From a virus (Duplodnaviria > Caudoviricetes), in the IMG/VR virus record IMGVR_UViG_3300014169_000023, positions 1 through 24,757 of that record: a stretch of DNA of 24,757 nt; one strand, written 5' to 3'. This document shows, piece by piece, positions 375 to 20,976 of the stretch (within the stretch, counting starts at the first letter, position 1; each line of letters starts with the position of its first letter). The translations under genes were made by a program, and so were the position numbers. The notes under the pieces are model-generated. The model was not told the DNA's origin. It was given only the letters and a program-made list of their open reading frames with translations, and ran no database searches.

Positions 375-1787
375 ATGAATGCGATAGCCTCACATCAACC
401 GCGCATATTCTCCGCACAGCAAGTGGAGGCGTTGAAAGCACCTCTGTTCCGCGGGAACGTTAGCTCGCGGGTTCAATCAGGGCGCCAGCTTTCGTATATC
501 GAAGGGTGGTGGGCAATCCACGAAGCAAACAACATTTTCGGCTTTGATGCGTGGTCGCGGGAAACGATTGAGACGAAATGCGTTGCGGAGCATAAACGCA
601 GCATTGGGAAGCCACCGAACCAAAAGGAAGGGTGGGGGGTTTCCTACATCGCCAAAGTGCGGGTCACGGTCGGAACCATCACCCGCGACGGGACGGGTGC
701 CGGGCATGGCATAGATCAGGACCTCGGTCTTGCCCACGAGTCGGCAATCAAAGAGGCCGAAACGGACGCGATGAAACGCGCCTTGATGACGTTCGGGAAT
801 CCGTTCGGCCTAGCGCTTTACGACAAGACGCAAGCCGAAGTCGAAAGCGCGCCCAAAACCGCCCGCGCGCGGATTGCTGAGATTGCCGCGTCGGACGATC
901 CGCAGGCCGGCGCGGAAGCCATGGCCGAGGAATGGACCGACAAGCAGGCGCAGAACCTTCGCAACGGCCTCAGCGCTCCCACAGAGCACACGCGGCCCGC
1001 TCCGCACACACTCCCGCCGATCGTCAACGAAACGCCCCGGCAATGGGCACAGCGCTGGGCGAAGGCGATCCAACTGTGCGAGACGGTGCGCGAGCTGGAA
1101 GACTGGATGCGGCTCAACCAGGAAATCCGCACCAAGCTGGTGACCAAGGGTACGGAGTTTGTCCGCTCTATCATAGAGGCCGGCGAGACCGGCGTGCGGC
1201 GCCGCATTGCCGAGGCTAACACGGTGCCCGAGCACGACGCCGATGGCGTTGTGCAAGAAAACCCTACGATGATGGCGATGCGGAACCTCCCGGCATCCCG
1301 TGCGCCATCTGCGGAGCCGCAGTTTACAGCTCAATGTTCGACATCTGCTTTGGCTGCGAGCGCGCCCTGCTCGACTAAAGGCGCAGCGCTGAGCACGGAA
1401 TCGCCTCCGGAAGTAACGCACCCGGCGGCTGCGGCCCCTGCATTGTCCCCCAACCCCGGTGCGGGGGCCGCTACCACAAACCCTACGTCGGGCGCTGCCG
1501 GGAGTGCGGCGCCAAAATCCGGGAACTCTTGTATGGGCGCCCCCTCTGTTTCAAGTGCTGCCACGGATGCGATGACCCGGAATCCGGTCAACCTGGTCAA
1601 AGTTGACTGGGAGGTATGGCTCGCCGAGTTCGAGGACAAATGCGTCGGCTGCGATACCATAGAGGAACTTATGGCCGTGTGCGATCAACAGCCTGTCGGC
1701 ATCCCTCCTGGCATCCAAGAGCGTAATTCTCTAACCGTAAACCGACACTGGAAGCGGGTTACGGCCCCCGCGACATGGGGGCCGTGA
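375..1787 (+). CDS. Rad52/Rad22-family (Sak-like) single-strand annealing recombinase with long C-terminal extension
   Basis: Motifs LSYIEGWWAIHEANNIFGFDAWS, YIAKVRVTV, RDGTGAGHG and HESAIKEAETDAMKRALMTFGNPFGLALYD are characteristic of the Rad52 fold. They are followed by a helical region and an Ala/Pro/Ser linker. Confidence 0.92.
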   Translation: MNAIASHQPRIFSAQQVEALKAPLFRGNVSSRVQSGRQLSYIEGWWAIHEANNIFGFDAWSRETIETKCVAEHKRSIGKPPNQKEGWGVSYIAKVRVTVGTITRDGTGAGHGIDQDLGLAHESAIKEAETDAMKRALMTFGNPFGLALYDKTQAEVESAPKTARARIAEIAASDDPQAGAEAMAEEWTDKQAQNLRNGLSAPTEHTRPAPHTLPPIVNETPRQWAQRWAKAIQLCETVRELEDWMRLNQEIRTKLVTKGTEFVRSIIEAGETGVRRRIAEANTVPEHDADGVVQENPTMMAMRNLPASRAPSAEPQFTAQCSTSALAASAPCSTKGAALSTESPPEVTHPAAAAPALSPNPGAGAATTNPTSGAAGSAAPKSGNSCMGAPSVSSAATDAMTRNPVNLVKVDWEVWLAEFEDKCVGCDTIEELMAVCDQQPVGIPPGIQERNSLTVNRHWKRVTAPATWGP

Positions 1788-2251
1788 TGAGCGCATCATA
1801 TCCGTTCCGCCGCCGCGGCGGCACGCTGGTTCCTGCCTCCGCGGAGGCAGAGGAGGCCTTGCGCGCGATGAAGGATGGCCGCGATTGCATGGTCACGCTT
1901 AAGGTCGCACGCAACGTCAGACACCATAAACTGCTATTCGCAGCGCTGAGGTTCGTTCAAGAAAACACGGATTTATTTGAAGGTCGAACAACCGACGTGA
2001 TACTGACCGCGCTAAAAATAGCGACTGGGCACGTTGATGTATTTACAGACACGTCAACCGGGGCTACGATAATGGTTCCAAAATCTATCGCCTTCGAAAG
2101 CCTCGACCAAACAGCGTTTTCGCGTTTCTTCGACGCGGCTGTCAATATCATCACGTCGAGATGGATGCCTCCCGGTACAGTTACCGAAGACGTAAGGCGG
2201 CATATCGAAGATATGGTCGATGGCGGCTATAGCGAGATGAGGCGAGCATGA
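1787..2251 (+). CDS. DUF1367-like phage protein (recombination-module accessory)
   Basis: TGATG coupling to the Sak gene. The motifs RNVRHHKLLFA, LKIATGHVD and PKSIAFESLDQTAFSRFFD match my recollection of DUF1367. Confidence 0.75.
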   Translation: MSASYPFRRRGGTLVPASAEAEEALRAMKDGRDCMVTLKVARNVRHHKLLFAALRFVQENTDLFEGRTTDVILTALKIATGHVDVFTDTSTGATIMVPKSIAFESLDQTAFSRFFDAAVNIITSRWMPPGTVTEDVRRHIEDMVDGGYSEMRRA

Positions 2252-2700
2252 GCCTGCGCCCCGCACCTGTCGGCTCGTTGCTGAAACAGCCAAGTTCATC
2301 AAGTAAGGGCGCTGGATCATCAAGTAAGCCCCCGAAGGGCAAGCGCCAGGCGCCCGCGTTCAACGCGGGCAAACACCTTGCGGCAATTAGATGCCTCCCT
2401 TGTTGCTCATGCGATACGGACCCGGCCGGCATCGCGGCTCACGTTCGGATGGCGGACGCCGCAGCGGGCAAAGCTGACAGCGGCATGGGCCGAAAGCCGG
2501 ACGATCGGTGGACCGTGCCAATGTGCCGATCGTGTCACACGGACGCGCCGGACTCCCAGCACGCCTTGGGCGAAGTGCAATTCTGGGCGCATCTTGGAAT
2601 TGATCCGCTGTGGCTGTGCGCTCAGCTCGCTTCGGCGTCGCCGGATGTAGGCCGGATGAGGGATATTATTTTCAAAACTCGCGAGGTGAGAAAATCATGA
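2248..2700 (+). CDS. DUF968-like Zn-binding / HNH-like putative nuclease
   Basis: ATGA overlap with the upstream gene. Pattern HLAAIRCLPCCSC...AAHVR...GMGRKPDDRWTVPMCRSCH...QH...FW...GIDP. Confidence 0.75.
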   Translation: MSLRPAPVGSLLKQPSSSSKGAGSSSKPPKGKRQAPAFNAGKHLAAIRCLPCCSCDTDPAGIAAHVRMADAAAGKADSGMGRKPDDRWTVPMCRSCHTDAPDSQHALGEVQFWAHLGIDPLWLCAQLASASPDVGRMRDIIFKTREVRKS

Positions 2701-4423: not shown

Positions 4424-5137
4424 TCACTTCCCGAGGGCAGCTTCCAGAGCCGTAATCGCCGTCTTTAGGTCCGCGAGCGCCGTAGGGATGCTGCCGGCCA
4501 CGGTGGTCAAGGTCGGCACCGTTGCCCCCGGCGTAACCAAGTTGGCAATCTGCGCCTTCAGCGCGGCGTTAGCCTGCGGGATTTGCGCGATAAGCGGCTT
4601 CGCCGACGCCGGCACGAAGGGCAGCCATGCGACGATCGGTGCCATGAAGCTGTTTGCGTCCAGAAAAGCGTTGACAGCCGTCAACCACGTCGGCGGGGAT
4701 GCGTTTGTCGCGGGGGGTGATGCGGGCGGAACAACGGGGGTATCGGCCACGGGAGCAGGTTCCTTTGTCGGCACAAGGGGGGCGCCGGCGAGCGCCAGCG
4801 CGTGATTGAGCGATGTGTCGAAGGCGTTGGCCGTCGATCCCGACAGCTCGGCGTAAATCGCCTTAATCAAAGCTACCGGATCGACCTGCTTAATCGCAGC
4901 GAGGGTCGCCGGCCCCATTACGCCGTCTTCCGGCACCTTAACGAGGCCTTGTAGAAACTTTACGGCGTCGTGCCCACCGTTCGGGGAGCACGCCGAGAAC
5001 TCCAGCATCGAGAACGCAAGGCCGGGGTTAATTGCTTGAAGCCCGTCGAAGTCTATGACCGCCTCAAACCCGGACCAATTCGGTTCGTAGCCGATCACCT
5101 TGTCGAGAAAATCGCGGGCGTCTTGTTCAGCGGCCAC
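4424..5137 (-). CDS. Degenerate GH108-type lysozyme / peptidoglycan-binding protein with Pro-rich linker and C-terminal helical domain
   Basis: LAFSMLEFS...AVKFLQGLVKVPEDGVMGPATLAAIKQVDPVALIKAI resembles the C-terminal half of GH108 plus the PG-binding DGxxGxxT motif. GGAG lies 8 nt before GTG 5137 (the ORF track starts at 5146). Confidence 0.65.
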   Translation of the reverse strand: MAAEQDARDFLDKVIGYEPNWSGFEAVIDFDGLQAINPGLAFSMLEFSACSPNGGHDAVKFLQGLVKVPEDGVMGPATLAAIKQVDPVALIKAIYAELSGSTANAFDTSLNHALALAGAPLVPTKEPAPVADTPVVPPASPPATNASPPTWLTAVNAFLDANSFMAPIVAWLPFVPASAKPLIAQIPQANAALKAQIANLVTPGATVPTLTTVAGSIPTALADLKTAITALEAALGK

Positions 5138-5204
5138 CGATACCACTCCGGATATTTTATCCGACCTTCGGAATCAATCGTGACCTGCACCCCCCGATAA
5201 GGAA

Positions 5205-5402
5205 CTACTGGTCTTTCGGCTTCTCCGCCTGTCTCTTGACGATCTCGTTTATCCATTCGATCAGCCTAACAGAGTACGCGGGGGGAATGGAGGTCTGTAT
5301 GATCTGGTCGAGCTTCCGAAGGTCGGCCTGATCGAGCGTGATGGTTTGTTGAGCGAAGGCCGGGCTGGCGATTAAAGACGTGAGGAGGGCTAGGCGAATC
5401 AT
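5205..5402 (-). CDS. Small helical fibre-associated protein with signal peptide
   Basis: TAATG coupling to the upstream gene. MIRLALLTSLIASPAFA|QQ has a basic n-region, hydrophobic h-region and A-x-A site. Confidence 0.75.
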   Translation of the reverse strand: MIRLALLTSLIASPAFAQQTITLDQADLRKLDQIIQTSIPPAYSVRLIEWINEIVKRQAEKPKDQ

Positions 5403-5752
5403 TATTGTAACGTCACAGACGTAGTTGCGCCAGTCACCGCAACACCCTGATAGTAGCTATCAACGTCGGCTATGAGATGCTGTTCGATAACGGTCTTGAG
5501 GTAGGCCAGAACCTGCACGCTCGAGCACACGCCGTTGATGCTGGTGTTGCACGCAGCCTGAAACGTCGCAATCAACTGCGTGTGCCACGTCCCGGTACTG
5601 TCGGTTATCGTCGCCGAGCAGGTGAAGTTGCCCGCCGTGACGTTGCCCACAGTACAGGTCCCGCCGGTACCACCGCCGATCGAGAGAGTGATAGTGTCAG
5701 CGGCCATCGCCGGAGAGGCGAAGAGGGCGAATAGAAGGGCTAAGCGTTTCAT
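5402..5752 (-). CDS. Secreted-type protein with signal peptide and two Cys pairs (116 aa)
   Basis: Start reassigned to ATG 5752 (GAGG SD). N-terminus MKRLALLFALFASPAMA|AD. Confidence 0.75.
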   Translation of the reverse strand: MKRLALLFALFASPAMAADTITLSIGGGTGGTCTVGNVTAGNFTCSATITDSTGTWHTQLIATFQAACNTSINGVCSSVQVLAYLKTVIEQHLIADVDSYYQGVAVTGATTSVTLQ

Positions 5753-5760
5753 GTCAAACC

Positions 5761-7803
5761 TCATTGCCATGTGACGAGCGCAGCACCGGCCGGCGTTTTC
5801 GGCTGTTTCCACGCTCCCCCGGTATAGAACCAAAATTGGCTGTTCGTGGTATCAAATACCATGGGCACAAGACCGGTGAAAGATGATGGCGTCCCGGTCG
5901 GTGTACCGGCGACAGTCGGGATGTAGAGGAACCCATCCGTTGCGCTGGTTGAAAGCGCCGCATTGCCAACTAGCACGGTCTGCGTTCCGCCCTTGAGGGT
6001 GAGCGCGGTTGATGAGGTATTCCGCGACGTGGCGGCCGCGCCAACGTTGGTAGTCTTAAAGATAAGATCGCCGCCATAAGTGGTAGACCCGCCCGCAGGC
6101 GTGCCGGTAGCTAGACCACCAAGGATTGTCCCGTTTGGAGAAGCGGTATTGGAATTGCCCGCCGCGACGCCCACCATAGACAGCGTAATGGGATTGGCCC
6201 CGGTGCCGTCCACTCCGCCGAACTGAAGTTGTGAAGTGGCCGGAGAACTTATCTGAGCGTTCGTCCGGCTCGTGAACGCTAGCTGCACGGCGTTATTAAT
6301 GGATACGTTACCATTGGAGGTAAACCCGTTGCTGAAAGTAATGACGCCCGATACTGTCTGCGCCGCCCCCAACGTCATCAACGTGTCGGTCACTGCCGGC
6401 ACCGTCATGGTGTAGTTGGTCGCCGACGCGTTCGCAGAGGTAAATGTCGTGTAGCCGGTAGACGAACCGAGCAGACGAACGTCAGAGTTTGTGAAGGTCT
6501 GAACGGCCGTGAAAGTCTGAGCGGTGCCCAGAAGCGCCACTGTGTCGGTCACAGCGGGGAACGTGAGAGTAAAATTGCTCGCCCCCGCGTTGGCCGACGT
6601 GAAGGTTGTATACCCCGTCGATGAGCCGAGGAGGCGGATGTCGGAGTTTGTGAAGGTCTGGACCGCCGTCCAGGTGTTGGCGTTACCCAAATTAAGCCCG
6701 GCAACGACAGCACCCGTCGTCGGGCTGATTGTCAACGTGCTGTTGGCGTTGGCCGTAACCGATGTAACGGCACCGCTGCCAGAGCCGCAGTCGCTACCGG
6801 TACCGGACAAAAGACCCGCAGTGTTTACGTGGACACACTGCGTCCCCGCGCTGGCCAGACCCGTCACAGTCAAGGCCGATAGGCCCGAACTTGTCCACGT
6901 CGTGCTGTCAGGGAGCGTTAAAGTACCAGTAGGAGAAGGGTTGGCAACCGGCAGATAGGCCGTGCTCGTGAAAGCATTGCTGCCGAGCGCTACGCCGGCC
7001 TGCTCGATCTTCGTAGCATTGATGCACCCTGCCCCGCAGTCGCCGCCGGTGACGGTCGGAGGGACGGTAACGCCGCCATCGTTCTCGATCTGGGCAACGG
7101 CAGCGGAAGTAAGGCTACCAGTTGGAGTATTGTAGAACGTAATGTGGGTCGGCGTAGATGTGCCGCTCCAGAGCGAGTCAGCGTAGATGCGAACCGACCC
7201 GGAAGACGCAGTCGTGAAAGCCGAACCGGTATAACCTAGACCTTGAAGATTGGTGATCAGCGAACCAGCGGCCGTCGCCGTAGGCGATGCAGCGGTTCCC
7301 TCCGACCGGCGGCCGGCAAAGTTGGACGCGGCGGCGAATGAATCGATCTCTACCCGGCCTGCTACGGTATCTGCACTTCCGAGCTGAAGGACTGTGCCAG
7401 CTATCGCAGTCGGCAGTGCGGCGGCGTTAAGATTAAACGACTGCGCACCGTTGATCTGCATGTCGCCAGCGCCGAAGATCATCGCGGTGCCGTTAGTAGT
7501 CACCCCCAACATGCCGCCGAACGCGCCGGCGTTGTTGTATTGGATCGAGTTTACGTTGCCGCCGGGCGTGCCACCGCTTCCACCGGCGCAAGTATAGGGG
7601 GCAAGAATATAAGCGTTCCCACCAACGGACGACATGCCCAAGCAACTGTTATTGTCGGCGCCCCCATCGGCGCTATATACGACCGTCGGGACGCCGACAA
7701 GCGCGGCATTGTCGGTATATAAGACGGGATCCCCACCCGAAATTTGCGCAAAAGCGCATACCGGGAACATAAATGCCGTTGAGGCTAATAGGGCGCGCTT
7801 CAT
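5761..7803 (-). CDS. Tail-fibre/adhesin-like Gly/Thr/Ser-rich protein with N-terminal signal peptide
   Basis: AGGAG SD. Fibre-type motifs include SIQYNNAGAFGG, FAGRRSEGTAASPT and C-terminal ALSTSATDGFLYIPTVAGTPTGTP...PMVFDTTNSQFWFYTGGAWK. Contains an internal 53-aa tandem repeat. Confidence 0.8.
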   Translation of the reverse strand: MKRALLASTAFMFPVCAFAQISGGDPVLYTDNAALVGVPTVVYSADGGADNNSCLGMSSVGGNAYILAPYTCAGGSGGTPGGNVNSIQYNNAGAFGGMLGVTTNGTAMIFGAGDMQINGAQSFNLNAAALPTAIAGTVLQLGSADTVAGRVEIDSFAAASNFAGRRSEGTAASPTATAAGSLITNLQGLGYTGSAFTTASSGSVRIYADSLWSGTSTPTHITFYNTPTGSLTSAAVAQIENDGGVTVPPTVTGGDCGAGCINATKIEQAGVALGSNAFTSTAYLPVANPSPTGTLTLPDSTTWTSSGLSALTVTGLASAGTQCVHVNTAGLLSGTGSDCGSGSGAVTSVTANANSTLTISPTTGAVVAGLNLGNANTWTAVQTFTNSDIRLLGSSTGYTTFTSANAGASNFTLTFPAVTDTVALLGTAQTFTAVQTFTNSDVRLLGSSTGYTTFTSANASATNYTMTVPAVTDTLMTLGAAQTVSGVITFSNGFTSNGNVSINNAVQLAFTSRTNAQISSPATSQLQFGGVDGTGANPITLSMVGVAAGNSNTASPNGTILGGLATGTPAGGSTTYGGDLIFKTTNVGAAATSRNTSSTALTLKGGTQTVLVGNAALSTSATDGFLYIPTVAGTPTGTPSSFTGLVPMVFDTTNSQFWFYTGGAWKQPKTPAGAALVTWQ
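6352..6669 (-). repeat. Two tandem 159-bp (53-aa) repeats within the fibre gene
   Basis: TAVQTFTNSD(I/V)RLLGSSTGYTTFTSANA...PAVTDT...LG.AQT occurs twice. GAGTTTGTGAAGGTCTG is found at 6485 and 6644, 159 nt apart. Confidence 0.9.
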
Positions 7804-7813
7804 GACATGGCTC

Positions 7814-8185
7814 CTAATTTAGGAAATTCGTCACTGTGTAGAAGAGGAAACCATTCACATTGTTATTAACCCCCGTCCCATTAACGACTTGAAACGAGGC
7901 GTTTACAGCACATTCGAACCAAGCGTTGCCGTCAAAGGGGAAAAATAAAGTTGCACCAGAATTAAGATTGAAAGCGCCGTTGAACACGTTTCCAGCGCCG
8001 TCTTGGAACACAAGCGTAGATAGAACCGTATTTGCCACCAGAAGTCTGTGCACCCTGATGTATAAGCCCGCCCCCGGCGCCGCTATCAGCGTCGCCGTGC
8101 CGCCCGAGGCAATGTTTCCCGTCGCCACGGAAATCGCGGTGAGCTTCCCGGCGCCTTCACGTGGACTGAGGTTAAATCCGGCCAT
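7814..8185 (-). CDS. Small beta-rich (jelly-roll-like) putative virion protein
   Basis: GGAAGGG upstream. Pattern LIAAPGAGLYIRV...LVFQDG...GAFNL...PFDGNAWFEC. GC content is lower than in the flanks. Confidence 0.7.
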   Translation of the reverse strand: MAGFNLSPREGAGKLTAISVATGNIASGGTATLIAAPGAGLYIRVHRLLVANTVLSTLVFQDGAGNVFNGAFNLNSGATLFFPFDGNAWFECAVNASFQVVNGTGVNNNVNGFLFYTVTNFLN

Positions 8186-9165: not shown

Positions 9166-11460
9166 TCAATCCTTTCGACGTGCGTTAACGGACGCGAACC
9201 CGATCCGGTCCAACTCTCCCGCGGCTTCCATTTCTGCCCTGACTTTAGCTTGGCGGGCTTCTTGTGCGGCTAATTTCTTCTTGTATGCCGCTTCCAGTCG
9301 CTCAATAGCGCGTTGCTCTGCCGTCAGTTGTTCCGAAGTCGCCTTGGCAGGAGCGGCTTTCGCGGCGGCCGGCGCCTCGGTCGCGGCCTCCCCGCGGCGA
9401 AGACCGGCCGACGAAAACCCTATCCGTTCCGGCGGACCGCCCATGACGCCAAGCGCTGCATTGGCCGCTGGGCCGGATAGGGTTTCACCGATTCGCTTGC
9501 TCCATCCCGGCGTCTCAATACCACGAGCATTGGCAACACCTTGCAGCCCCCCGGACGCAAAGGCTGACAGCATATCCATGATCCCGGTGGACGGCCCAGC
9601 ATCCGACGCCTTGTCCAGATACTGTTGTTCCGGGTTTGGCCTAGTGCCGCCGACAAGGCCGCCGCGGATGGCCGCTGCCAGCGTTGGATTGGGCGGGCGA
9701 TACATCGCAGCCGGCGCGGTAAGTTGCTTCGCCATGTCAGGCTTGATCGGTGTGGCAAACAGGATGCGCGATATTTCCTCGTTTAGCTTTGGATTTGGCC
9801 GCAGTCCCACGTCGCGGTAAAGCCGGATAGCGTTCTTGGCCGCCGATAGCCACCGCCCCGTCGCAACGTTCTCGGCAATGTGCGCGCCGCCAGCCGCCAG
9901 CATATTTTCACCGGACTGATCTTCGGCAAGACGGCGGGCAGTCTGTGACCCTCCGAGCGTTTCAAACTTGGTGCCGAACATTTGCCGCTCTTGCGTAACC
10001 GCATCCACGAAGGCGTCGAATTCGGCTGGCGTGCGGAAGATCGGCTTCAGTTGGTCGCGCATCCACTGGTTCTTGATGAGCGACTTGGCTTCATCGCCAG
10101 AAAGCCCGGTTTTTGCCATGCGCTCCCGGATTGCGTCCGCCACGCCGAGCCGATAGAATTCCTGGTTGCCCGCGCCAAGCCCACCGAATTCCGCCGCTAT
10201 CTCTTCTGGGCTGCGCTGGAACAGCGTTCGCCCCTGCCGTACCGCGTCAAGTGATTGCGACGGCCCCGCCCATGCCGCGCGAGCCTTGGCATATTCGGGG
10301 TTCATCTTGTCGAGTTCGTCAACGTAAGAACGGCGAACGCGGTCGAGCATCACCCCTCGCTGCGAGAGCCGCCCCGTGATGGCGTCGCGCTCACCGTCGA
10401 TCATCGCGTCAAGCCCGCGCTTCACGGCATCAAGCGTTCTCATGTTCGCGCCGGGTGGGGATGGCTTGTACGGCAACCCGGCCGCTAAGGCCTCAAGCCG
10501 TTGGCTTTCAATACCGGCCGCCATGCCTTTCTTGACGGTCGGATCGGCGAGGAAAAGCTTAATCTGTGGTGTTTCTGGAATTGGGGCAGCCATCGCCACT
10601 TCGTACAGTGGATTTGCGGCCTTTGACCGCGCCCGAATCAAATCCTCCGTCGTCTTGTGCATGGACGGACCGCCGGAAATGTACTTGGAGATATCCTGGC
10701 CCAGTCGGGCCGCAGCGCCTTCGTCACGCTGATTGAGGAATTGCGAGGCAATGTTGCGGCTTTCACCGGGCTGGCGCGCCACATTCCCGGCAAGGCCCTT
10801 GACGTTCTCCCCGCCCACGTCGGCGAGCGTCATGGGCTTGCCCTTCGCCGCGGCGTCGTTGACGCGCGTAATGGCGTCCTGGGCCGTCAATCCGCCGCCC
10901 TTCACGTCCTGTTCGAAGCGCTGCGCTACCTTGGACGCCGCCTGTGCGGGGATGTCAGGACCGGCCTTGATCGCTGCGATCTTGCTCGCCCCGGCGCCGG
11001 CCAGTCCCCCGCCTGCCGCACCGCCGATGATCCTTCCAAGCAACGAGTCGTTTGTGAGTTGCCCGCCGGCCTCGGAACCAATGCCGCCAATCACCGCCGC
11101 GGCCGCCTTGCCAAGCAATCCACCCGGCCCAACGTAGGATGCCGGATTGCCGAGCGACTCACCGATCGCGGTGCCCCATTTGCCGCCGGACGGCAGTTTT
11201 CCAGTGACATTCTGCTCGATCAGGCGCGTGCTCTCCGCCTGCCCCGGCACGCCCTCCATGCCCTGCTGGCCGGCCTCTGCCTGCCCCAGCGCGGAGGCCG
11301 CGCCCATGGCGCCGCTCACGATCCCGCGGGGGATCGACTTCACCTCGTTCCACAACCGTCCGAGCGTCGATACCTCCGCAGGTTTTTGCTGAGACGGTTT
11401 GAAATCCTCCCACGGCCCGGACGCGGCTTGCGGGGCAAAATCCTCCCACGGCCCAGCCAT
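9166..11460 (-). CDS. Large internal virion / DNA-ejection protein
   Basis: Start reassigned to ATG 11460 (TAATG coupling). N-terminal GPWEDF occurs twice, followed by a Gly/Ala hydrophobic segment and a long helical body. Third of three consecutive Ala/Gly/Gln-rich genes after the tail genes. Confidence 0.75.
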   Translation of the reverse strand: MAGPWEDFAPQAASGPWEDFKPSQQKPAEVSTLGRLWNEVKSIPRGIVSGAMGAASALGQAEAGQQGMEGVPGQAESTRLIEQNVTGKLPSGGKWGTAIGESLGNPASYVGPGGLLGKAAAAVIGGIGSEAGGQLTNDSLLGRIIGGAAGGGLAGAGASKIAAIKAGPDIPAQAASKVAQRFEQDVKGGGLTAQDAITRVNDAAAKGKPMTLADVGGENVKGLAGNVARQPGESRNIASQFLNQRDEGAAARLGQDISKYISGGPSMHKTTEDLIRARSKAANPLYEVAMAAPIPETPQIKLFLADPTVKKGMAAGIESQRLEALAAGLPYKPSPPGANMRTLDAVKRGLDAMIDGERDAITGRLSQRGVMLDRVRRSYVDELDKMNPEYAKARAAWAGPSQSLDAVRQGRTLFQRSPEEIAAEFGGLGAGNQEFYRLGVADAIRERMAKTGLSGDEAKSLIKNQWMRDQLKPIFRTPAEFDAFVDAVTQERQMFGTKFETLGGSQTARRLAEDQSGENMLAAGGAHIAENVATGRWLSAAKNAIRLYRDVGLRPNPKLNEEISRILFATPIKPDMAKQLTAPAAMYRPPNPTLAAAIRGGLVGGTRPNPEQQYLDKASDAGPSTGIMDMLSAFASGGLQGVANARGIETPGWSKRIGETLSGPAANAALGVMGGPPERIGFSSAGLRRGEAATEAPAAAKAAPAKATSEQLTAEQRAIERLEAAYKKKLAAQEARQAKVRAEMEAAGELDRIGFASVNARRKD

Positions 11461-12881
11461 TACACCTTCTCCCAACTGCTTTGTTGCGCCGGATCACCGC
11501 CCTTGAACCGATAGCCCTTTCGGACCTCACCAACCGCAGGACCGGCAGGGGCGGCGCTGATACCGCCCGTGTTGCCGGTGCCAAGCCCTTGTTCGGCCTT
11601 TTGACGCTGGATCGCCCTATGCATTACCTGCGCTTCAACGCCAAGCTGATCGAGCGCCGCGTTGTACACCTCGGGACTGTCCGCCTTCGACACGATCGAG
11701 CGTGCGTACTCGATATCGCTTTCGCGCAACACACCCTGCGGATTGATCGTGCGAGCGTAATCCTTCACGGCCGTATCTGTAGCAATCAAAAGCCGGCGCA
11801 CGGCAGGATCGCCCGACTCGGTCTGGCCTCGCTGGATCAACTCATTGATCGCCCGCCACTGCCCGCGCGGAACGGCTTCGGATGCAGCTTTGGCGATCGG
11901 AATGGATTCCTCCATTGCCTTTTCGGCAACGCCAAACTTTGTTTCGACTGTACCAAGAGCGCGCGCCGCCGATGTCTTGTTTGCCTTGTCAACCGAGTAG
12001 TCAGACTCCTTGTAACCGGGATTAATCTCCATGACGCGCGCCATAGTAGCGCGATCCTGCGGCTGGCGCGGATTGGCTATACCGGGCAACTGCCCCTTGG
12101 CGATGGCCTGCGCCCGACTCTCCAGTACGGCTTGCTGATCGGGCGTAAGACCGGCCCGGATTTCGGCCAATTCCTTCTGTTGGGCAAACCGCGCACCCGC
12201 TTCCGTGAGCTTGTCAGCGGCCTGCTCGCGCGCGTGCATGATCTCAAAGACCCGCTGAACATTACCGGAAGATGTAGCAGCAATCATCATTTGGTCCTGA
12301 TTGGCGGCAGCAATAGCTTGCATCCGGGCGGCTTTGTCAGCAATGGAAAGTCTGGAATTCTCCATCACTGCTTTGTAGCGTTCCATTTCAATGGCGTTTT
12401 GCTTCTGTGCGTAATCCATAGAAGCTTTCCATTGTTCAAGATGCAAATCGGCCACTTCCTTTTGACCGTTTTTAAACCCCTCCATGGCCGCGGCACCGGC
12501 CTTCAAGGCCGCTGTCATCGGGGCGCGCGTGAAGATCGAGCCGAGCGCGGCCAAAAGTACGGCCGGCGATTGGAAAACCTGCATCGTGTCTTGGTATTCA
12601 AACTTTGGGGGCGGGGTGACGTTCTGCAGCTTGGGCACGCCGGGAATGGCGACGTGCTGCTGCGCCATTTGGTCGTGTTGCGCCTGCGAAGCCTTAAGCC
12701 GCGCGGTGGTTTCCTCGGCCACTTTGTTCTGGTTGGCGAGCGCGGCCTCTACATCGGCTTGCGATGCACCCTTGATATCCGGGCGCGGCGTGAGGCCCGG
12801 CGCCTTGACTACCTCCGCCGCCGACGTGGGGCCGGTGGCGGGAAGCGTGTCTGGCTTTTCGAGAACGTCGGTGTCAGCCAT
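11460..12881 (-). CDS. Internal virion / DNA-ejection protein
   Basis: Ala/Gln-rich helical protein ending in PAVGEVRKGYRFKGGDPAQQSSWEKV, a C-terminal motif I recognise from podovirus ejection proteins. Synteny agrees. Confidence 0.72.
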   Translation of the reverse strand: MADTDVLEKPDTLPATGPTSAAEVVKAPGLTPRPDIKGASQADVEAALANQNKVAEETTARLKASQAQHDQMAQQHVAIPGVPKLQNVTPPPKFEYQDTMQVFQSPAVLLAALGSIFTRAPMTAALKAGAAAMEGFKNGQKEVADLHLEQWKASMDYAQKQNAIEMERYKAVMENSRLSIADKAARMQAIAAANQDQMMIAATSSGNVQRVFEIMHAREQAADKLTEAGARFAQQKELAEIRAGLTPDQQAVLESRAQAIAKGQLPGIANPRQPQDRATMARVMEINPGYKESDYSVDKANKTSAARALGTVETKFGVAEKAMEESIPIAKAASEAVPRGQWRAINELIQRGQTESGDPAVRRLLIATDTAVKDYARTINPQGVLRESDIEYARSIVSKADSPEVYNAALDQLGVEAQVMHRAIQRQKAEQGLGTGNTGGISAAPAGPAVGEVRKGYRFKGGDPAQQSSWEKV

Positions 12882-12882
12882 G

Positions 12883-14106
12883 TCACGTTGTCGCAGTCTT
12901 CACGGCGTTGGTCGCCAGCCCACGCCCCACACCGCCGCCGATCGCGCCCGTGAACGACGCGATAGCGTTCTGCAACGCGGTGTCCTGCGAGATTTGCGCC
13001 TGCGTGAGGTCGTTGTAGATCGTCCCCTCGAGGCCAAGGTCCTGCGTCGCTTGGTTCCCCGCCTGGATGCCCGTTTGAGCCATCTGCTGGGCGATCGTGA
13101 ACGTCATTTGCTGGGCTTGGCTTTGGGCCTCGGAAATTGCCGCCTGTTCCGCGGTCGACCCCGTCAATCCAAGATTGGCATACTTCGACTTGATCGACGT
13201 GATGCTGTCGTTAAGAGCCTGAGTTACCTGCGCCTGGGCGCCTGCCGGGAGAACGCCGGTCGTCAACGGGGCCTCGAGCGCGCCCGCGTAAGCGTTGGCG
13301 TTGCCCGCCGCGGTGCTGGCCTGATTCGCGACGCCCGTCAGTGCCGCTTGATTTGGGATCGATCCGGTGAGACCAAGCTTTGCCAGCAACGGCGCCGCAA
13401 GGTTTGCCGCGAGGCCCGCGCCGCCGAGTGTAAGTGCCCCGGAATTGCTTTTGAGGTAGCTGCCGATCTGGCCCAACGTGGTCGTGTCGCTGCCAGCGGC
13501 CGGCGTCGCGGAGGACGGAAGCGTGGTGCCGTAGTCGCCAGTGATGCCGGTGCTCGCCGTAAAGTCCGACCCGCCTGTGCCGAACGATCCGGCCGGCGTG
13601 CCGCTGCCAGGATCAAGCACACCGCCGGTGCTGGAAAGGCTTCCAAACGGGGTTGATACAGGCGTATTGGCCGTTGCGGGCGATGCAATCGGCGTCGGCG
13701 TTTCACCGGTGTAAGCAAACGTCGCCGGGTCCTGCAGGGCCACCCCCGCCGCGTCCGGCACGCCATAGGCCGCCCCGGTGGGGGAAAGATCAGCCGCCGT
13801 GCTGGCGCCCGTCGCAAGGTCAGACCCGCTACCAAGGCCGAAGTAGCTCCCGACACTGCGGGCGGCATCGCTGATGCCAGAGCCGATGTTTCCTGCGGTG
13901 TCGCTGATTGCCGTGCCGGCCTCGCCAAACAGGTCGCCAACGGCCCCAAGGCCCCCGGCAAGGCCAAGCCCGCCCAGGCCCAAGGTGCCCGCGCCGATCG
14001 TCTCGGCGAGCTGGTCAGGGTGCGTGGCAAGCGATTCCGGGGCGTGCGTGATATCCGTGCCCAGGGAGCTGAAATTTCCTTTGAAGAGATCACTGAGGAA
14101 ACTCAT
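12883..14106 (-). CDS. Gly/Ala/Thr-rich internal virion / ejection protein (pilot-like)
   Basis: ATGA overlap. Gly-rich hydrophobic stretches and an Ala/Gln helical C-terminus (IKSKYANLGLTGSTAEQ). Synteny agrees. Confidence 0.7.
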   Translation of the reverse strand: MSFLSDLFKGNFSSLGTDITHAPESLATHPDQLAETIGAGTLGLGGLGLAGGLGAVGDLFGEAGTAISDTAGNIGSGISDAARSVGSYFGLGSGSDLATGASTAADLSPTGAAYGVPDAAGVALQDPATFAYTGETPTPIASPATANTPVSTPFGSLSSTGGVLDPGSGTPAGSFGTGGSDFTASTGITGDYGTTLPSSATPAAGSDTTTLGQIGSYLKSNSGALTLGGAGLAANLAAPLLAKLGLTGSIPNQAALTGVANQASTAAGNANAYAGALEAPLTTGVLPAGAQAQVTQALNDSITSIKSKYANLGLTGSTAEQAAISEAQSQAQQMTFTIAQQMAQTGIQAGNQATQDLGLEGTIYNDLTQAQISQDTALQNAIASFTGAIGGGVGRGLATNAVKTATT

Positions 14107-14940: not shown

Positions 14941-16140
14941 CTATGCGTTCACGTTGTCGTCCCAGCCGACGCAGAAGATATAGTTGCTGTCAACAGCCGA
15001 TGCCCAGTATATGTTTGTGGATTCCAAAACGAACTCGTAATTTGAGTTAATATAAAAGGCAAGGCTTCCGGATGAAGCCATAACTACGGGAGGCGTTGCC
15101 GTTGTTGACGTATATGCACCATAATTATTATTCGGTGCAACCATAATTCCGTTTCCTGCAAATGCTTGACAATATACAGCAATTTTGATGGATTTTGCTG
15201 TCGTTGGCACGATCCCCGTGAGAGACAACGCTACCCACGTCGGCGCTGAGATGCTTCCATGCGGAGCGCCACTGCCGGGCGTGATCGCAGGAAGGCCGGT
15301 CAAGGCATTGCTGTTGTACGTGCCAACGAGGTTTTGGACTTTGGACCCCTTCTGCATCCAGTTGACGAATTTCGGCCCCGTCACCGCGATGCAGCCGCCC
15401 GCCCGCGCCTTGTAGCTGTACCCGGACGGCAAGAGCGGCGTCGTACTCGACAGCGACAGCAGCCCCGCCGTGGTCGTGGTGCTCGGGTTGTAGATCACCC
15501 AAACGTAATATGTCCCTGCTCCGAAAGAGCTGGTATCAAGCCCGTTTGCGCCACTGGAATTAGCATTGATCGTGAACGATAGCCCGCCCGAACCAGAAAA
15601 GCCGGTGCCGACCTTGACGGTACCTCCGGTGGAATTTTCCAACACCGCTTCATCGAACGATACCGCAATCTGCGATGCCGCCGTGGTCGCCGTCGTGTTC
15701 GTGATCAGAAGGTTTTTGAAGCTGCCCATGACCGGAACGGGCGTGTTTACGGCCGCCGTGCCGCTTGAATTGAGCGTAATGAAGCCCCCGGCGCCGGAAT
15801 TCAGCTCCTGGCAGTACTGCGAGACGTACTTTGCGCCGCTTTGAATGCTCCCAGCGTTGGATTGCGTGCCAGTCGCGTCGTAATAATTCAGAACGCCAAG
15901 TCCAAACGCCGACATGGTGACGGGGCCGGTCGAAGTTGCGCCCGCAGTCCACGAAACGATTTGCTTGTCGGTATAAGCCGCCGGCGTGTAGCAGTTTGTC
16001 TGCGATACCAGCGTGATGACGTTCGTCCCGGTCGCGGTGCATGGGATATTGCCTTGCTGTCCCACAATTCCGAACATCGTGTCGAGGTCGGAGGCCGGCT
16101 GATTCCCGGAAAGGTTGGCGAAAGTGTAAGGATAGGCCAT
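14941..16140 (-). CDS. Tail fibre / receptor-binding protein
   Basis: GGAGG SD. N-terminal anchor MAYPYTFAN...ASDLD. Fibre motifs SGANGLDT...YYVWVIYN...AGLLSLSSTTPLLPSGY...R.G and a terminal GWDD. Located right after the nozzle gene. Confidence 0.8.
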   Translation of the reverse strand: MAYPYTFANLSGNQPASDLDTMFGIVGQQGNIPCTATGTNVITLVSQTNCYTPAAYTDKQIVSWTAGATSTGPVTMSAFGLGVLNYYDATGTQSNAGSIQSGAKYVSQYCQELNSGAGGFITLNSSGTAAVNTPVPVMGSFKNLLITNTTATTAASQIAVSFDEAVLENSTGGTVKVGTGFSGSGGLSFTINANSSGANGLDTSSFGAGTYYVWVIYNPSTTTTAGLLSLSSTTPLLPSGYSYKARAGGCIAVTGPKFVNWMQKGSKVQNLVGTYNSNALTGLPAITPGSGAPHGSISAPTWVALSLTGIVPTTAKSIKIAVYCQAFAGNGIMVAPNNNYGAYTSTTATPPVVMASSGSLAFYINSNYEFVLESTNIYWASAVDSNYIFCVGWDDNVNA

Positions 16141-16143
16141 AAA

Positions 16144-17784
16144 TCACCCTCCAAAAGGCGAAAAGTTGCGATAAAGAAGGATGAGCGCTTCGATCGTAAA
16201 ATCTGGCGAGGTCGAAGTCAATGTCCAGCCCACAAGAGCGGCCGTCACAGGCAATGTTTCGCCGTTGTACGTGAGTCCGGACACCGTGAAATTGAGGTTC
16301 GCCCCACCCAGCCCTATGAACTGGATAGGCCCTGTCCCCACAAATACCAACGGTTGCTGGTTGGACGATATCGTGATCGGAACGGACGACGTGAGGTTTT
16401 CCGCCACATAATCGATCGTGCCTGTCAATGTGTACCCGGCGCCGGAGTTATCTTGCAACAGAGAGTAGGCGCGCATCACTTGTTTGTTAACGATCAGCCC
16501 GTCCCCGGCCCACAGCTTGGACTGCAAAATTTTTGTCAGCGTCGTGGACGTGGTAGCGAAAAGCTGGAAAAACCGCGTCCCATCGGTCCCGTAGGCCGTC
16601 AGTTGCGAGTTGATTTCCTGACTTCCGATGAATGTGAGGGATCGGTCCTGCGAGCCAAACCACCACTTTTTACCCCCCGACCACATTGCCATGACAATGC
16701 GATAATTGCCCGAAAGGTCCAAAACGGGGATCAAGATGCAGTACGTTTTAACCGCATAGATGTTGCACACCGCAGCGCTGGGCTGATTGATCGAAGCATC
16801 GTTGACAATCAGGTTTTGCACTTTGGACAACGCCCCGTCCAAGGCATCGTCGCTGATTTTTTCGACCGAACCGCCCTCAAGCCTGTAAACGCCCGTGGAC
16901 GTGGCAAAGATCAGCGCCCGGCCAAAAGGGGCAACCGAATTATGAAATGGGCTTCCGACCTGCGGATCGACGTTCTGGTTGTTGTACGTGGTAACCACCG
17001 GGGATCCGCTGGATTGCACGTTGCTGATCACGTTTACGGACGAGTCGCCGCCGCGGTACAAGAACGAATTGGCCTGGCGAATCCAGGTGATTTCGCGGCG
17101 CAGGAACGCATCCGTCACGGGGGACGTCCCGCCGCCGTCGTTCGCCGTGAAATCCGCTCCGTTCCCAGGGGCGGAGTTTGTGAAATTCACCCCGTTCCCG
17201 ATCCAGACCCGGCCTTGGTATGTCTCGATGCACGTCCCTGACACCCCGGTGGGCATTGTCGTGGCGGTATTGTCGGTGAGCCACGACGGCGCCGCCGCTC
17301 CCGGCCCGTACAGCGTAGCGCCGTCCCAGGCGTAGTACGAGCTGGTGCTATTGGTCGAGACGATCAGTATCCCCGACGTGCCCCACTGAGAGGCTTGCGG
17401 GCCGGGATTCCCGAGCGTGACCGAGCCTGGATAAAACGTGCCGGGCCCGGCGATGCTGGTTGTGGCCTGCGTCGATAGATTAACCTGGACGGCGCTGCCA
17501 TCGGAGAAAAACAACGCTGTGTAGACGTTCGCGTTGATGTTGTAGCAGTAGAAATAGATGACGGTGAGGCCACCGGCCGCGGTGTAGAGCGTCGACCCGT
17601 TGGTCGGCAGACAGCGCATGTTGCCGTCGCCGATCGGCATGAGGTTTTCAAGCCACGAAAATTCCTGGTCGCCTATCGCCGGCCGGTTGGCCTTGGTATT
17701 CAGCCCGCCGAACTTTTCCAAGACGAACGTCTTCGGTTCCGCCCCGGCGAAGGACTTGGCAAGCGATGATTGCTCGCCGGGCAT
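16144..17784 (-). CDS. Tail nozzle / DNA-stabilisation protein (T7 gp12 / P22 gp10 position)
   Basis: 546-aa beta-rich protein with FGGLNT...I.DQEFSWLENLMP at the N-terminus and propeller-like segments (YQGRVWI, VEKISD). Coupled (TGATG-like) to the adaptor. Confidence 0.8.
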   Translation of the reverse strand: MPGEQSSLAKSFAGAEPKTFVLEKFGGLNTKANRPAIGDQEFSWLENLMPIGDGNMRCLPTNGSTLYTAAGGLTVIYFYCYNINANVYTALFFSDGSAVQVNLSTQATTSIAGPGTFYPGSVTLGNPGPQASQWGTSGILIVSTNSTSSYYAWDGATLYGPGAAAPSWLTDNTATTMPTGVSGTCIETYQGRVWIGNGVNFTNSAPGNGADFTANDGGGTSPVTDAFLRREITWIRQANSFLYRGGDSSVNVISNVQSSGSPVVTTYNNQNVDPQVGSPFHNSVAPFGRALIFATSTGVYRLEGGSVEKISDDALDGALSKVQNLIVNDASINQPSAAVCNIYAVKTYCILIPVLDLSGNYRIVMAMWSGGKKWWFGSQDRSLTFIGSQEINSQLTAYGTDGTRFFQLFATTSTTLTKILQSKLWAGDGLIVNKQVMRAYSLLQDNSGAGYTLTGTIDYVAENLTSSVPITISSNQQPLVFVGTGPIQFIGLGGANLNFTVSGLTYNGETLPVTAALVGWTLTSTSPDFTIEALILLYRNFSPFGG

Positions 17785-18716
17785 TATTCATTCCCGTAGT
17801 ACGGCATGAACGGCGTTTCGACGCCGGCGCGGCTGAATTGCAGGTAAACGTCGCACTTCGCCTTCATGGCGTCGGCGTCTTGCTGGCGCTGCGCATCAAC
17901 GAGGGCCAGATACGCGGCGAAATAGGGCACAGCGTCGGAAAACGGCAGCGGTATTGCTTCCGGCGTGCTGTCAGAGGTCAAATCGACTGGAATACACCAT
18001 GCGTCAATGTCCATCTGGAGCTGTTGCGACGGCCACGGAAACAAATAGAAATTCCCACCGATGCCCTGGGCGTATTGCGCCCAATAAACAGGGTAATTTT
18101 GCGCCTGATTTTGGTAAATCCGGCAATATGCCTGGAATTCGGACCAAATCTTCGGGGTGAGCATTGGCTTGTAGGTGCCACCTTGTGAGCACGCCACCGA
18201 AAACAGCCCGCATACCGCCTGAACGCCTGGAATCAGGGCGTTATTTTGTGCCAGCGTGTTGAACGTGGAAAATTGATAGACTTCTTTACTGGCCACTGTG
18301 GAACAGGAATTGTCCACCGTCACGTTGAAGGTTGCGTTGCTCGCCCCAGAGGTGGCCCCGGTAGCTGTCACGAGAGGAGCGGTGAGGAACCCCCATCCGC
18401 CCGAGGTGAGCGTTACCGTAGACACCGCGGTGCCCACTACGGTTCCCGTAGCAAAGGCTTGCGCGCCGACGCCGTTGCCCTGGTTTGTGAAAGTAAAATT
18501 CAGGGTTTCGCCGGCGGTATAGCCAGAGCCGCCGGAATTGAGCGTGAGGGACGTGATCGTGCCGCCCGAAAGCAGCACGCGAACTGATTGCGACTTGATC
18601 GCAACGTAGCGGCGGGAGAGGTTTACATATCTTGTTAAATCTGTAGTTGAGAAGTAGGTAGCATTAGGGTCGTGAAGAAGTCTCTGTGTGTCCTGGAGAT
18701 ATTGCGTGAGGGCCAT
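17784..18716 (-). CDS. Head-tail adaptor (T7 gp11 / P22 gp4 position) with inserted beta domain
   Basis: N-terminal YLQDTQRLLHD...DLTRYVN and C-terminal YLFPWP...PVDL...IPLPFSDAVPYFAAYLA match the adaptor-type pattern. Synteny agrees. Confidence 0.8.
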   Translation of the reverse strand: MALTQYLQDTQRLLHDPNATYFSTTDLTRYVNLSRRYVAIKSQSVRVLLSGGTITSLTLNSGGSGYTAGETLNFTFTNQGNGVGAQAFATGTVVGTAVSTVTLTSGGWGFLTAPLVTATGATSGASNATFNVTVDNSCSTVASKEVYQFSTFNTLAQNNALIPGVQAVCGLFSVACSQGGTYKPMLTPKIWSEFQAYCRIYQNQAQNYPVYWAQYAQGIGGNFYLFPWPSQQLQMDIDAWCIPVDLTSDSTPEAIPLPFSDAVPYFAAYLALVDAQRQQDADAMKAKCDVYLQFSRAGVETPFMPYYGNE

Positions 18717-18717
18717 T

Positions 18718-19209
18718 TTAAGCCCTCAGTGGGAAATTCAGCTTTGCGAACTGACCGTGGAACAGTTGCGCGGCAAAATCATAGACATGGGCAGCGTCTT
18801 TAGCCGTTTCGTACTCTCCGATGTACTTATAGCGGCCTGATCGGTCCTTTATCCTTACCACGAACCTGCCAACACGGCTGTCCAGGCTGACGCCCTTGTA
18901 CCCCGTCGTGTTGTTGGCTTGCTTGCTGCGATTATTGGCGTTCTGAACACGGCCACACACCCGCAGGTTCCCTCTGCGGTTGTCGAGGGGATCCCCGTTG
19001 ATGTGGTCCACTTCCATATCCACGGGGAACCCCATGATCTGGCGGTACATGTAGATTTTGGCCCGGTTCTTCTCGGAACGGGGCCCGTTCCTAGCGGGCC
19101 TGTACTTGCCGCCTGTATCGTTGGCGAACCACTTCCACCGGATGAGGTCTTGGTAGTCCTCATCGTCAACTATGGCTTCGAGACCTTTGGTCAGCGGGAT
19201 GGTTTTCAT
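18718..19209 (-). CDS. Free-standing HNH-AP2 homing endonuclease
   Basis: N-terminus IPLTKGLEAIVDDED, HNH core VDHINGDPLDNRRGNLR, and AP2 domain NTTGYKGV...YIGEYETAKDAAHVYDFAAQLFHGQFAKLNFP. Confidence 0.93.
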   Translation of the reverse strand: MKTIPLTKGLEAIVDDEDYQDLIRWKWFANDTGGKYRPARNGPRSEKNRAKIYMYRQIMGFPVDMEVDHINGDPLDNRRGNLRVCGRVQNANNRSKQANNTTGYKGVSLDSRVGRFVVRIKDRSGRYKYIGEYETAKDAAHVYDFAAQLFHGQFAKLNFPLRA

Positions 19210-20556: not shown

Positions 20557-20976
20557 TCACCAGCCGCGGGAGAAGAGTGTTGCGTTGTATGAGCACCAGA
20601 CACTTACCGGTCCGATGGGCTTGTAACCAGGCCAAGTGACGAACACAGACACGGGCTGGAACGACCCTGGAAAAGGACCAGGCGGAATCGGCATTCCGAC
20701 ATTTGAACCGGCAGGGCCGTTATCGTTCCAGTAACATTGTCCATTAGCAGCGGTAAACATAGAGATAGAAAATCCATTTGGCGGCACCTTCCCACCAAAC
20801 AAAAACGTCGAAGCATTCCCGACAGTCAGGCTGTTATCACCCAATGACGGCCCCGGCAGAGCAACCGGCGCGGCAAAAAGCGGGCACAGTTGTGTCCCCA
20901 GTTCCACAGATGCCGGACACTGTCCCCACGCGGAGGGCGACAGCCCGAAAAGGACGGCGGCAAGAACAATACGCAT
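20557..20976 (-). CDS. Secreted-type beta protein with signal peptide and four Cys
   Basis: GAGGA SD. N-terminus MRIVLAAVLFGLSPSAWG|QC. Lower GC than the capsid gene. Confidence 0.7.
   Translation of the reverse strand: MRIVLAAVLFGLSPSAWGQCPASVELGTQLCPLFAAPVALPGPSLGDNSLTVGNASTFLFGGKVPPNGFSISMFTAANGQCYWNDNGPAGSNVGMPIPPGPFPGSFQPVSVFVTWPGYKPIGPVSVWCSYNATLFSRGW

What the first reader, a model, noticed from the sequence alone, without database searches (positions are those of the whole stretch)
5205..7803. Fibre-like protein and its two downstream partners all carry Sec signal peptides: a candidate exported, disulfide-bonded fibre module
Seen in sequence: three consecutive, SD-supported or translationally coupled late genes begin with textbook signal peptides (MKRALLASTAFMFPVCAFA|Q, MKRLALLFALFASPAMA|A, MIRLALLTSLIASPAFA|Q). 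The predicted mature fibre has six Cys in three close pairs (NSC..YTC, DCGAGC, TQC..SDC) and the 116-aa partner has four in two pairs. Established knowledge: tailed-phage virions assemble in the reducing cytoplasm, so fibres and their chaperones normally lack signal peptides. The phage also has a conventional fibre without one (14941-16140). Inference: this is a second system, folded in the periplasm with Dsb-made disulfides. It could be added to virions at lysis, displayed or secreted as an adhesin, or act as a receptor-masking/decoy factor.
Basis: partly seen in the sequence, partly recalled or inferred. Interest (0 to 1): 0.82.

Follow-up and report, generated by a model that had tools for sequence, protein, structure and literature searches.

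The report
Exported, disulfide-paired phage fibre cassette
A short-tailed-type phage from wetland DNA puts predicted secretion signals and cysteines that come and go in pairs on a fibre-like protein and its two small neighbours, whose relatives in other phages also occur without signal and cysteines, so this likely host-recognition module would fold outside the cytoplasm and likely join the virus particle only when the cell bursts.

Summary
Observation confirmed. The three coupled late genes and a fourth after the major capsid gene score as Sec leaders (4 of 32 genes; about 1% in shuffles; my own heuristic, not SignalP). No leader-skipping start with a ribosome site exists.

Among 119 fibre homologues, 71 carry leaders. 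Their mature cysteine count is even in 69 of 71, against 30 of 48 without a leader, and the pairs are gained and lost together. The fibre tip is shared with leaderless fibres, which keep a cysteine there where this one has Val. The 116-aa partner has cysteine-free leaderless relatives, one directly behind a leaderless fibre with the same tip. Related phages fill the same slot with leaderless or leader-bearing proteins.

So this is a fibre-plus-partner cassette rerouted for export (about 0.9). That it joins the virion at lysis is inferred (0.55); decoy or secreted roles remain open. The scan noted this before on at least 16 other genomes. Nine paper searches found no description, only a GenBank note on Bcep781 gp49.

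The parts
5761..7803 (-). Fibre-like protein P0001, 680 aa: predicted Sec leader 1-19, cysteine-paired N-terminal half, two 53-residue shaft repeats, cysteine-free C-terminal tip
   Evidence: no Pfam or PHROG hit
7747..7803 (-). Predicted signal peptide of the fibre (residues 1-19)
   Evidence: heuristic; start-codon check; conserved in P0005 and P0015
6427..6654 (-). Two shaft repeats (cores at residues 384-406 and 437-459), the part shared with most homologues
5761..5976 (-). C-terminal tip (residues about 610-680), up to 82-88% identical to tips of leaderless fibres; Val631 where most leaderless tips have Cys
5402..5752 (-). Partner P0002, 116 aa: predicted leader 1-17, four Cys, predicted beta-hairpin plus two helices; family has leaderless cysteine-free members
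5205..5402 (-). Partner P0003, 65 aa: predicted leader 1-17, 48-aa mature part without Cys, translationally coupled
20557..20976 (-). Fourth leader-bearing late gene (139 aa, four mature Cys) inserted directly after the major capsid gene; no homologue found
7814..8185 (-). Leaderless 123-aa protein just upstream of the fibre, conserved at the head of the slot in 5 relatives; candidate cytoplasmic docking site (inference)
14941..16140 (-). Leaderless fibre-like protein after the head-closure gene, conserved N-terminus in 4 relatives

Best explanation
The three genes are an accessory fibre cassette (fibre-like protein, a ~100-aa partner, a ~50-aa partner) of a podovirus-type phage; they carry predicted Sec leaders and paired cysteines, so they would be exported and likely oxidised by the host's periplasmic disulfide machinery, and the finished fibre likely docks on the particle when lysis lets cytoplasm and periplasm mix. 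Shown by sequence comparison: leaders, paired gain and loss of cysteines, a tip and a partner family shared with leaderless cassettes, and the same genomic slot. Inferred: cleavage, host Dsb use, trimer formation, binding of the partners to the fibre (as folding helpers or retained parts), and docking on the virion.
For: Leaders on 4 of 32 window genes and on 3 of 121 core virion-gene matches across the clade. Even mature Cys in 69 of 71 leader-bearing against 30 of 48 leaderless homologues; 28 of 29 against 14 of 26 after clustering. C323/C339 both present in 13 of 13 aligned segments; C256/C260 both present once, both absent 7 times, never single. Tip Cys in 13 of 13 leaderless and Val in 3 of 3 leader-bearing proteins matched by the pattern. 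Partner family: 31 of 35 with a leader, all even in Cys; the 2 full-length leaderless members have none. The best non-family hit among 12,667 small ORFs is a leaderless 88-aa gene 10 nt behind a leaderless fibre with the same tip, followed by a 75-aa gene (L169). In 11 related phages the slot between ejection and lysis genes holds 19 leader-bearing (18 even) and 19 leaderless large proteins (11 even). 8 of 72 leader-bearing fibres keep, right after the leader, an N-terminus that matches leaderless fibres. No integrase of the tyrosine type in 6 of 6 near-complete relatives, several with leader-bearing slots. P22 tailspikes and T4 long fibres attach last and in vitro (recalled).
Against: No cultured host, no proteomics; no paper found that shows a leader-cleaved fibre in a virion. 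P0001's own mature N-terminus does not match any of 109 leaderless N-termini, so no docking motif is identified for this protein. None of 73 viral-contig fibres with this tip has a leader, and non-Cys residues, including one Val, also occur in leaderless tips; two of the three Val tips look closely related. One leader-bearing partner homologue has no Cys (P0161). Most fibre homologues share only the shaft repeat. Virion disulfides can form without export (phages Milano and 7-7-1; passages of PMC13576161, PMC12796354), so disulfides alone do not need this route. The phage also has a leaderless fibre-like gene, so the cassette may be dispensable.
Confidence: 0.55

Rival explanations
1. Exported but never on the virion: soluble fibres in the periplasm, or released at lysis, bind receptors or surface polysaccharide and act as superinfection block, decoy against competing phages, or adhesin.
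For: Everything shown for export fits equally. No docking motif in P0001. A leaderless fibre-like gene is present. Relatives carry other exported accessory genes in the late region, including an outer-membrane-barrel-like protein (weak Pfam, E 0.0023). Phage T4 exports antiholin RI by a cleavable leader (search listing of PMC8385771).
Against: The genes are coupled inside the late operon with no promoter-like site on their strand, so they would be made too late for exclusion. They occupy the slot that holds leaderless fibres in 4 relatives. Some leader-bearing relatives retain a fibre-type N-terminus. Partners are co-exported, as expected for an assembled structure.
Confidence: 0.25
2. Displayed on the host surface like Bdellovibrio MAT fibres or trimeric autotransporter adhesins, for the benefit of a lysogen or carrier cell.
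For: MAT proteins are leader-bearing, phage-fibre-like trimers shown on the cell surface (passages of PMC10769870); a MAT fibre is among the weak, non-significant Foldseek rows for the tip. Two relatives encode a tyrosine integrase.
Against: No lipobox, transmembrane segment or autotransporter barrel; the C-terminus is the same as in leaderless fibres; near-complete relatives with leader-bearing slots lack a tyrosine integrase (serine type not tested); late-operon position.
Confidence: 0.1
3. The leaders are not used for export: mis-called starts, cytoplasmic isoforms from a second start, or uncleaved membrane tethers at the assembly site; disulfides form after lysis.
For: The database gene call starts the fibre at Met12. 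Post-lysis disulfides in virions are documented (PMC13576161, PMC12796354 passages). SignalP itself could not be run.
Against: No ribosome site at downstream starts and no downstream start at all near the 5' end of P0003. Cysteine number and parity follow the leader across families. The +1 residue is Gln in 43 of 71, behind A-x-A type sites.
Confidence: 0.1

Closest known systems
Cytoplasmic tail fibre plus assembly-partner cassettes (Mu gpS/gpU, PDB 5YVQ; lambda Stf/Tfa and T4 gp37/gp38, recalled)
   Same: Fibre gene followed by small coupled partner genes; repeat shaft and exchangeable tip; leaderless cassettes with the same tip are followed by ~100-aa (some DUF7936) and ~50-aa genes.
   Different: All three proteins carry leaders and paired Cys; no sequence or fold match to Tfa or gp38 families was found.
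Burkholderia phage Bcep781 gp49 and BcepC6B gp19 (cultured)
   Same: Annotated tail fibres with leaders and even Cys (14 and 4). The RefSeq note for gp49 reads 'possible tail fiber; possible signal peptide domain'. gp19 sits after a leaderless fibre and before the lysis genes and hits 12 of the proteins (best E 6e-26).
   Different: No significant direct similarity to P0001 (E 0.13-0.18); no small leader-bearing partner genes follow them; no evidence found that they are in virions.
Bdellovibrio MAT (mosaic adhesive trimer) fibres, PMC10769870
   Same: Leader-bearing, phage-fibre-like mosaic proteins with variable tips.
   Different: Bacterial chromosomal genes, surface displayed, with a conserved ~130-aa N-terminal domain and often an S74 chaperone; the word disulfide does not occur in that paper's main text. 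P0001 has no S74 hit and lies in a phage late operon.
Disulfide-crosslinked virions (Agrobacterium phages Milano and 7-7-1; siphovirus tail tube gp39)
   Same: Disulfides in virion proteins (passages of PMC13576161 and PMC12796354).
   Different: Those are core capsid and tail proteins; no export signal is mentioned in the passages seen. Here the core genes have no leader and only accessory genes do.

Membership tests
Sec/SPI substrate | Basic n-region, hydrophobic h-region, A-x-A type cleavage site, no lipobox or twin-arginine motif | tested here: met
   own heuristic with shuffle control. SignalP not available.
Sec/SPI substrate | Cleavage and export in vivo | not testable with these tools
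   needs N-terminomics or fusions
Dsb-oxidised periplasmic protein | Cysteines even in number and gained or lost in pairs with the leader | tested here: met
Dsb-oxidised periplasmic protein | S-S geometry in a model or structure | not tested
Phage tail/head fibre | Homology to leaderless fibre-like proteins in virion operons (shaft, tip) and late-operon position | tested here: met
   those relatives are themselves uncultured and unannotated
Phage tail/head fibre | Trimeric beta-fibre fold | tested here: inconclusive
   monomer model of residues 511-680, pLDDT 76; Foldseek best E 0.59, top rows mostly phage spikes and fibres
Phage tail/head fibre | N-terminal virion-docking domain shared with known fibres | tested here: inconclusive
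   no match for P0001 among 109 leaderless N-termini; 8 of 72 leader-bearing N-termini match
Phage tail/head fibre | Present in purified virions | not testable with these tools
   uncultured
Tail fibre assembly protein (Tfa/gp38) | Sequence or fold match | tested here: inconclusive
   no Pfam/PHROG hit; no fold match for P0002
Tail fibre assembly protein (Tfa/gp38) | Gene directly behind a fibre gene, in independent phages | tested here: met
   window; L093/L094/L095/L099 lineage; L169
Small helical fibre-linked family (L120-type, 46-57 aa) | Profile similarity of P0003 | tested here: not met
   rank 237 of 7767; 33 of 100 shuffled profiles scored as high
Trimeric autotransporter or MAT adhesin | C-terminal barrel anchor, lipobox or S74 chaperone | tested here: not met
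   no Pfam hit at E 0.1

The most novel reading that the evidence does not exclude
Tailed phages have a second, periplasmic assembly line: whole fibre cassettes, partners included, switch between cytoplasm and periplasm by gaining or losing leaders and cysteine pairs, and the exported, disulfide-stapled fibres are fitted to the particle at lysis.
Probability: 0.5. Interest if true: 0.92.

Novelty: new variant of a known kind. Interest (0 to 1): 0.76.

Why it matters
Tailed-phage virions are taken to be built wholly in the cytoplasm; a 2026 preprint legend still explains the missing leader of the P22 tailspike that way. If leader-bearing fibres reach the particle, morphogenesis spans two compartments, depends on host Sec and Dsb, and gains a step at lysis. 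It would change how thousands of environmental phage genes are read, since they may be misfiled as secreted auxiliary genes. This locus adds matched pairs: the same tip and the same partner family in exported and cytoplasmic form. Cultured phages with such genes exist (BcepC6B, Bcep781), so the question is directly testable.

Tried and rejected
Pfam, PHROG and PDB sequence searches of the three proteins: nothing significant. ESM Atlas: P0003 hits under 0.8, P0002 no usable hit. Fold searches: P0002 no Foldseek match and no VIA Z of 5 or more; tip no Foldseek match at E 0.001; the VIA search of the tip had not finished; the viral fold library was not searched. Homology of P0003 to the small helical family: not shown. 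Cultured-phage tblastn: none for P0001 or 20557-20976, one non-significant tip hit. Locus scans without result: head-closure protein, P0003 alignment and P0138 in viral contigs, major capsid in GTDB genomes, so no host was assigned. Bradyrhizobium phage ppBjS10J-1 has a leaderless fibre in this slot. No phage-encoded DsbA in 15 records. Two RNA runs held only two short contigs each, which is no evidence of expression. The G007 row used wrong coordinates and is replaced. Three long low-complexity hits (P0135, P0139, P0140) were dropped from the partner family. The Cellulophaga lead from an earlier finding gave no usable paper. The Bcep781 genome paper was not held. Passages of PMC3556154, PMC10747016, PMC3517404, PMC9144972, PMC5259590 and PMC13507307 did not bear on fibre export.

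Full report
Context. The window is a 24,757-bp linear IMG/VR virus record, 58% complete. On the minus strand it reads: portal-like fragment, scaffold-like gene, major capsid (20989-22056, phrog_9953), adaptor (17784-18716), head closure (16144-17784, phrog_578), a fibre-like gene (14941-16140), three large ejection-type genes (9166-14106, named by position and size), small genes, the cassette, and a lysin-like gene with a weak peptidoglycan-binding hit. There is no tape measure, so a podovirus-type layout is inferred. The nearest cultured capsids are 23-28% identical (Myxococcus Mx8/Mx9, Bradyrhizobium ppBjS10J-1, Stenotrophomonas BUCT555), and the host is unknown. A 42.5-kb metagenome contig is identical over 11,752 nt, probably the same source. 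Four wetland DNA runs hold the stretch, three flagged as possible sources.

The observation. All quoted N-termini, coordinates and cysteines are right. My heuristic calls leaders on 4 of 32 window genes against 1.1% on shuffles; three of the 32 had imprecise starts, all called negative. The fourth gene, 20557-20976, has four mature cysteines and was not seen after the capsid gene in the relatives where a following gene could be read. Start-codon inspection finds no ribosome-site-supported leaderless isoform.

Fibre homologues. One search found 284 proteins at E 0.001 among 8000 scored; I analysed the 119 listed besides the window's own. 71 have a leader. Cys per 1000 residues has median 12.1 against 5.2, and the mature count is even in 69 of 71 against 30 of 48. 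With one protein per cluster it is 28 of 29 against 14 of 26 (p 2.5e-4). After dropping 13 of the 48 by eye (7 probable missed leaders, 6 probable fragments) the clear leaderless set is 19 of 35 even, close to chance. Most hits share only the shaft repeat; only P0005 and P0015 share the N-terminal domain, both with leaders. Among 1896 proteins, C323/C339 are both present in 13 of 13 aligned segments (11 proteins, all leader-bearing). C256/C260 are both present once and both absent 7 times. C54/C72 are both present 4 times, offset by a few columns 3 times, and absent in 1 leader-bearing and 2 leaderless segments.

The tip. Residues about 610-680 are up to 82-88% identical to C-termini of leaderless fibres. 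At position 631, 13 of 13 pattern-matched leaderless proteins have Cys, while P0001, P0098 and P0122 have Val; the last two look like close relatives. A viral-contig scan with the tip gave 73 loci, none with a leader (12 open at the 5' end). Of 52 distinct tips 37 have Cys by pattern, 7 were unmatched (4 of them visibly with Cys), and 8 have Met, Thr, Ser or Val. So the window's fibre is a chimaera of an exported N-terminal half and a tip typical of cytoplasmic fibres. Loss of the unpaired Cys fits export but is not unique to it.

The partners. The P0002 family (35 sequences) has 31 leader-bearing members, all with 0, 2 or 4 mature Cys. Two full-length leaderless members have no Cys, and two are probable fragments. 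In one independent lineage with 44-45% capsid identity, the homologue follows a leader-bearing fibre by 4 nt inside a run of seven leader-bearing, even-Cys genes (L093). A profile of the family picks, as best non-family hit among 12,667 small ORFs, an 88-aa leaderless, Cys-free gene (E 7e-4; next hit E 2.6). It lies 10 nt behind a leaderless fibre with the same tip and is followed by a 75-aa gene (L169): the same triplet without export. Equal contig lengths suggest that P0002 and P0003 homologues co-occur on two other contigs and that P0129 lies with P0015 (inference only). All 4 P0003 homologues have leaders by eye. The small helical family behind leaderless fibres has 8 leaderless and 2 leader-bearing members, but P0003 is not shown to belong to it. 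The P0002 model (pLDDT 79) is a beta-hairpin plus two helices with no fold match.

The clade. Relatives found by capsid were read in stretches. In 11 genomes, with slot limits set by eye, proteins of 240 aa or more between ejection and lysis genes are 19 leader-bearing (18 even) and 19 leaderless (11 even; one is probably a missed leader). Four genomes have only leaderless ones. Core virion genes score as leaders in 3 of 121 matches. Eight of 72 leader-bearing N-termini match leaderless fibre N-termini, five through one motif shared with P0039/P0040; P0001 is not among them. A tyrosine integrase is found in 2 of 15 records and 0 of 6 near-complete ones; DsbA in none.

Mechanism. Export and oxidation outside the cytoplasm are the simplest reading of these patterns (about 0.9). 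The slot, the shared tip, the co-exported partners and the retained N-termini in some relatives point to a virion fibre. By established knowledge (recalled), P22 spikes and T4 fibres attach last and can do so in vitro, and holin-endolysin action mixes cytoplasm and periplasm before the outer membrane opens. I therefore favour docking at lysis (0.55) over decoy (0.25), surface display (0.10) and no export (0.10).

What is known. Nine full-text searches returned no paper that, by title, abstract start or the passages I read, describes exported tail fibres; subscription papers and supplements were not seen. I read passages only of PMC10769870 (MAT), PMC13576161 and PMC12796354 (virion disulfides), bioRxiv 10.64898/2026.09.13.751334, and six others without bearing; PMC8385771 only as a listing. 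The RefSeq note on Bcep781 gp49 shows that annotators noticed one such leader, and BcepC6B gp19 is a second cultured case. This scan has 17 earlier findings of the same kind in at least 16 genomes; they are unchecked notes and gave me leads, not support.

Verdict. A real, non-random feature: a fibre cassette rerouted for export, with matched cytoplasmic counterparts for the tip and for one partner. Its place on the virion is the open and testable step.

Noticed in passing
window 20557-20976 (-): Fourth leader-bearing gene with four mature Cys, inserted right after the major capsid gene; no homologue in cultured phages or fetched loci; possibly an exported capsid decoration.
   Followed up: partly
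window 4424-5146 (-): Lysin-like ORF with only a weak peptidoglycan-binding hit, no recognised catalytic domain, and a Pro-rich linker plus long helical C-terminus.
   Followed up: no
window 18718-19209 and 22073-22717 (-): Two HNH endonuclease genes inside the head operon, one with an AP2-like domain.
   Followed up: no
window 375-2700 (+): Rad52-family recombinase followed by NinB-like and DUF968/HNH-like genes.
   Followed up: no
L085:8830-9591 (-) and L065:5884-6585 (-): Related phages G010 and G005 carry leader-bearing genes resembling outer-membrane barrel proteins near the lysis genes (weak Pfam for one); the N-terminal motif is recalled as typical of Hyphomicrobiales, a host hint only.
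   Followed up: partly
L093:2996-9018 (+), L095:2963-9060 (+): Run of seven consecutive leader-bearing, even-Cys genes, including a leader-bearing member of the small helical family that elsewhere follows leaderless fibres.
   Followed up: partly
L094:2300-10374 (+): A near-identical leader-bearing fibre cassette sits in a different context, next to a terminase-like gene, suggesting that the cassette moves between phages.
   Followed up: no
L081/L082 (G009) 13700-28600 and L074/L075 (G007) 24900-35000: Five to six large leader-bearing proteins with up to 24 Cys in the fibre slot.
   Followed up: partly
L054:12628-13329, L056:8015-10201, L066:8205-9903: Several relatives insert non-structural-looking genes between the capsid-adjacent gene and the adaptor; not identified.
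   Followed up: no
one search hits: Gln is the +1 residue in 43 of 71 predicted mature fibres, so N-termini may be blocked by pyroglutamate.
   Followed up: no
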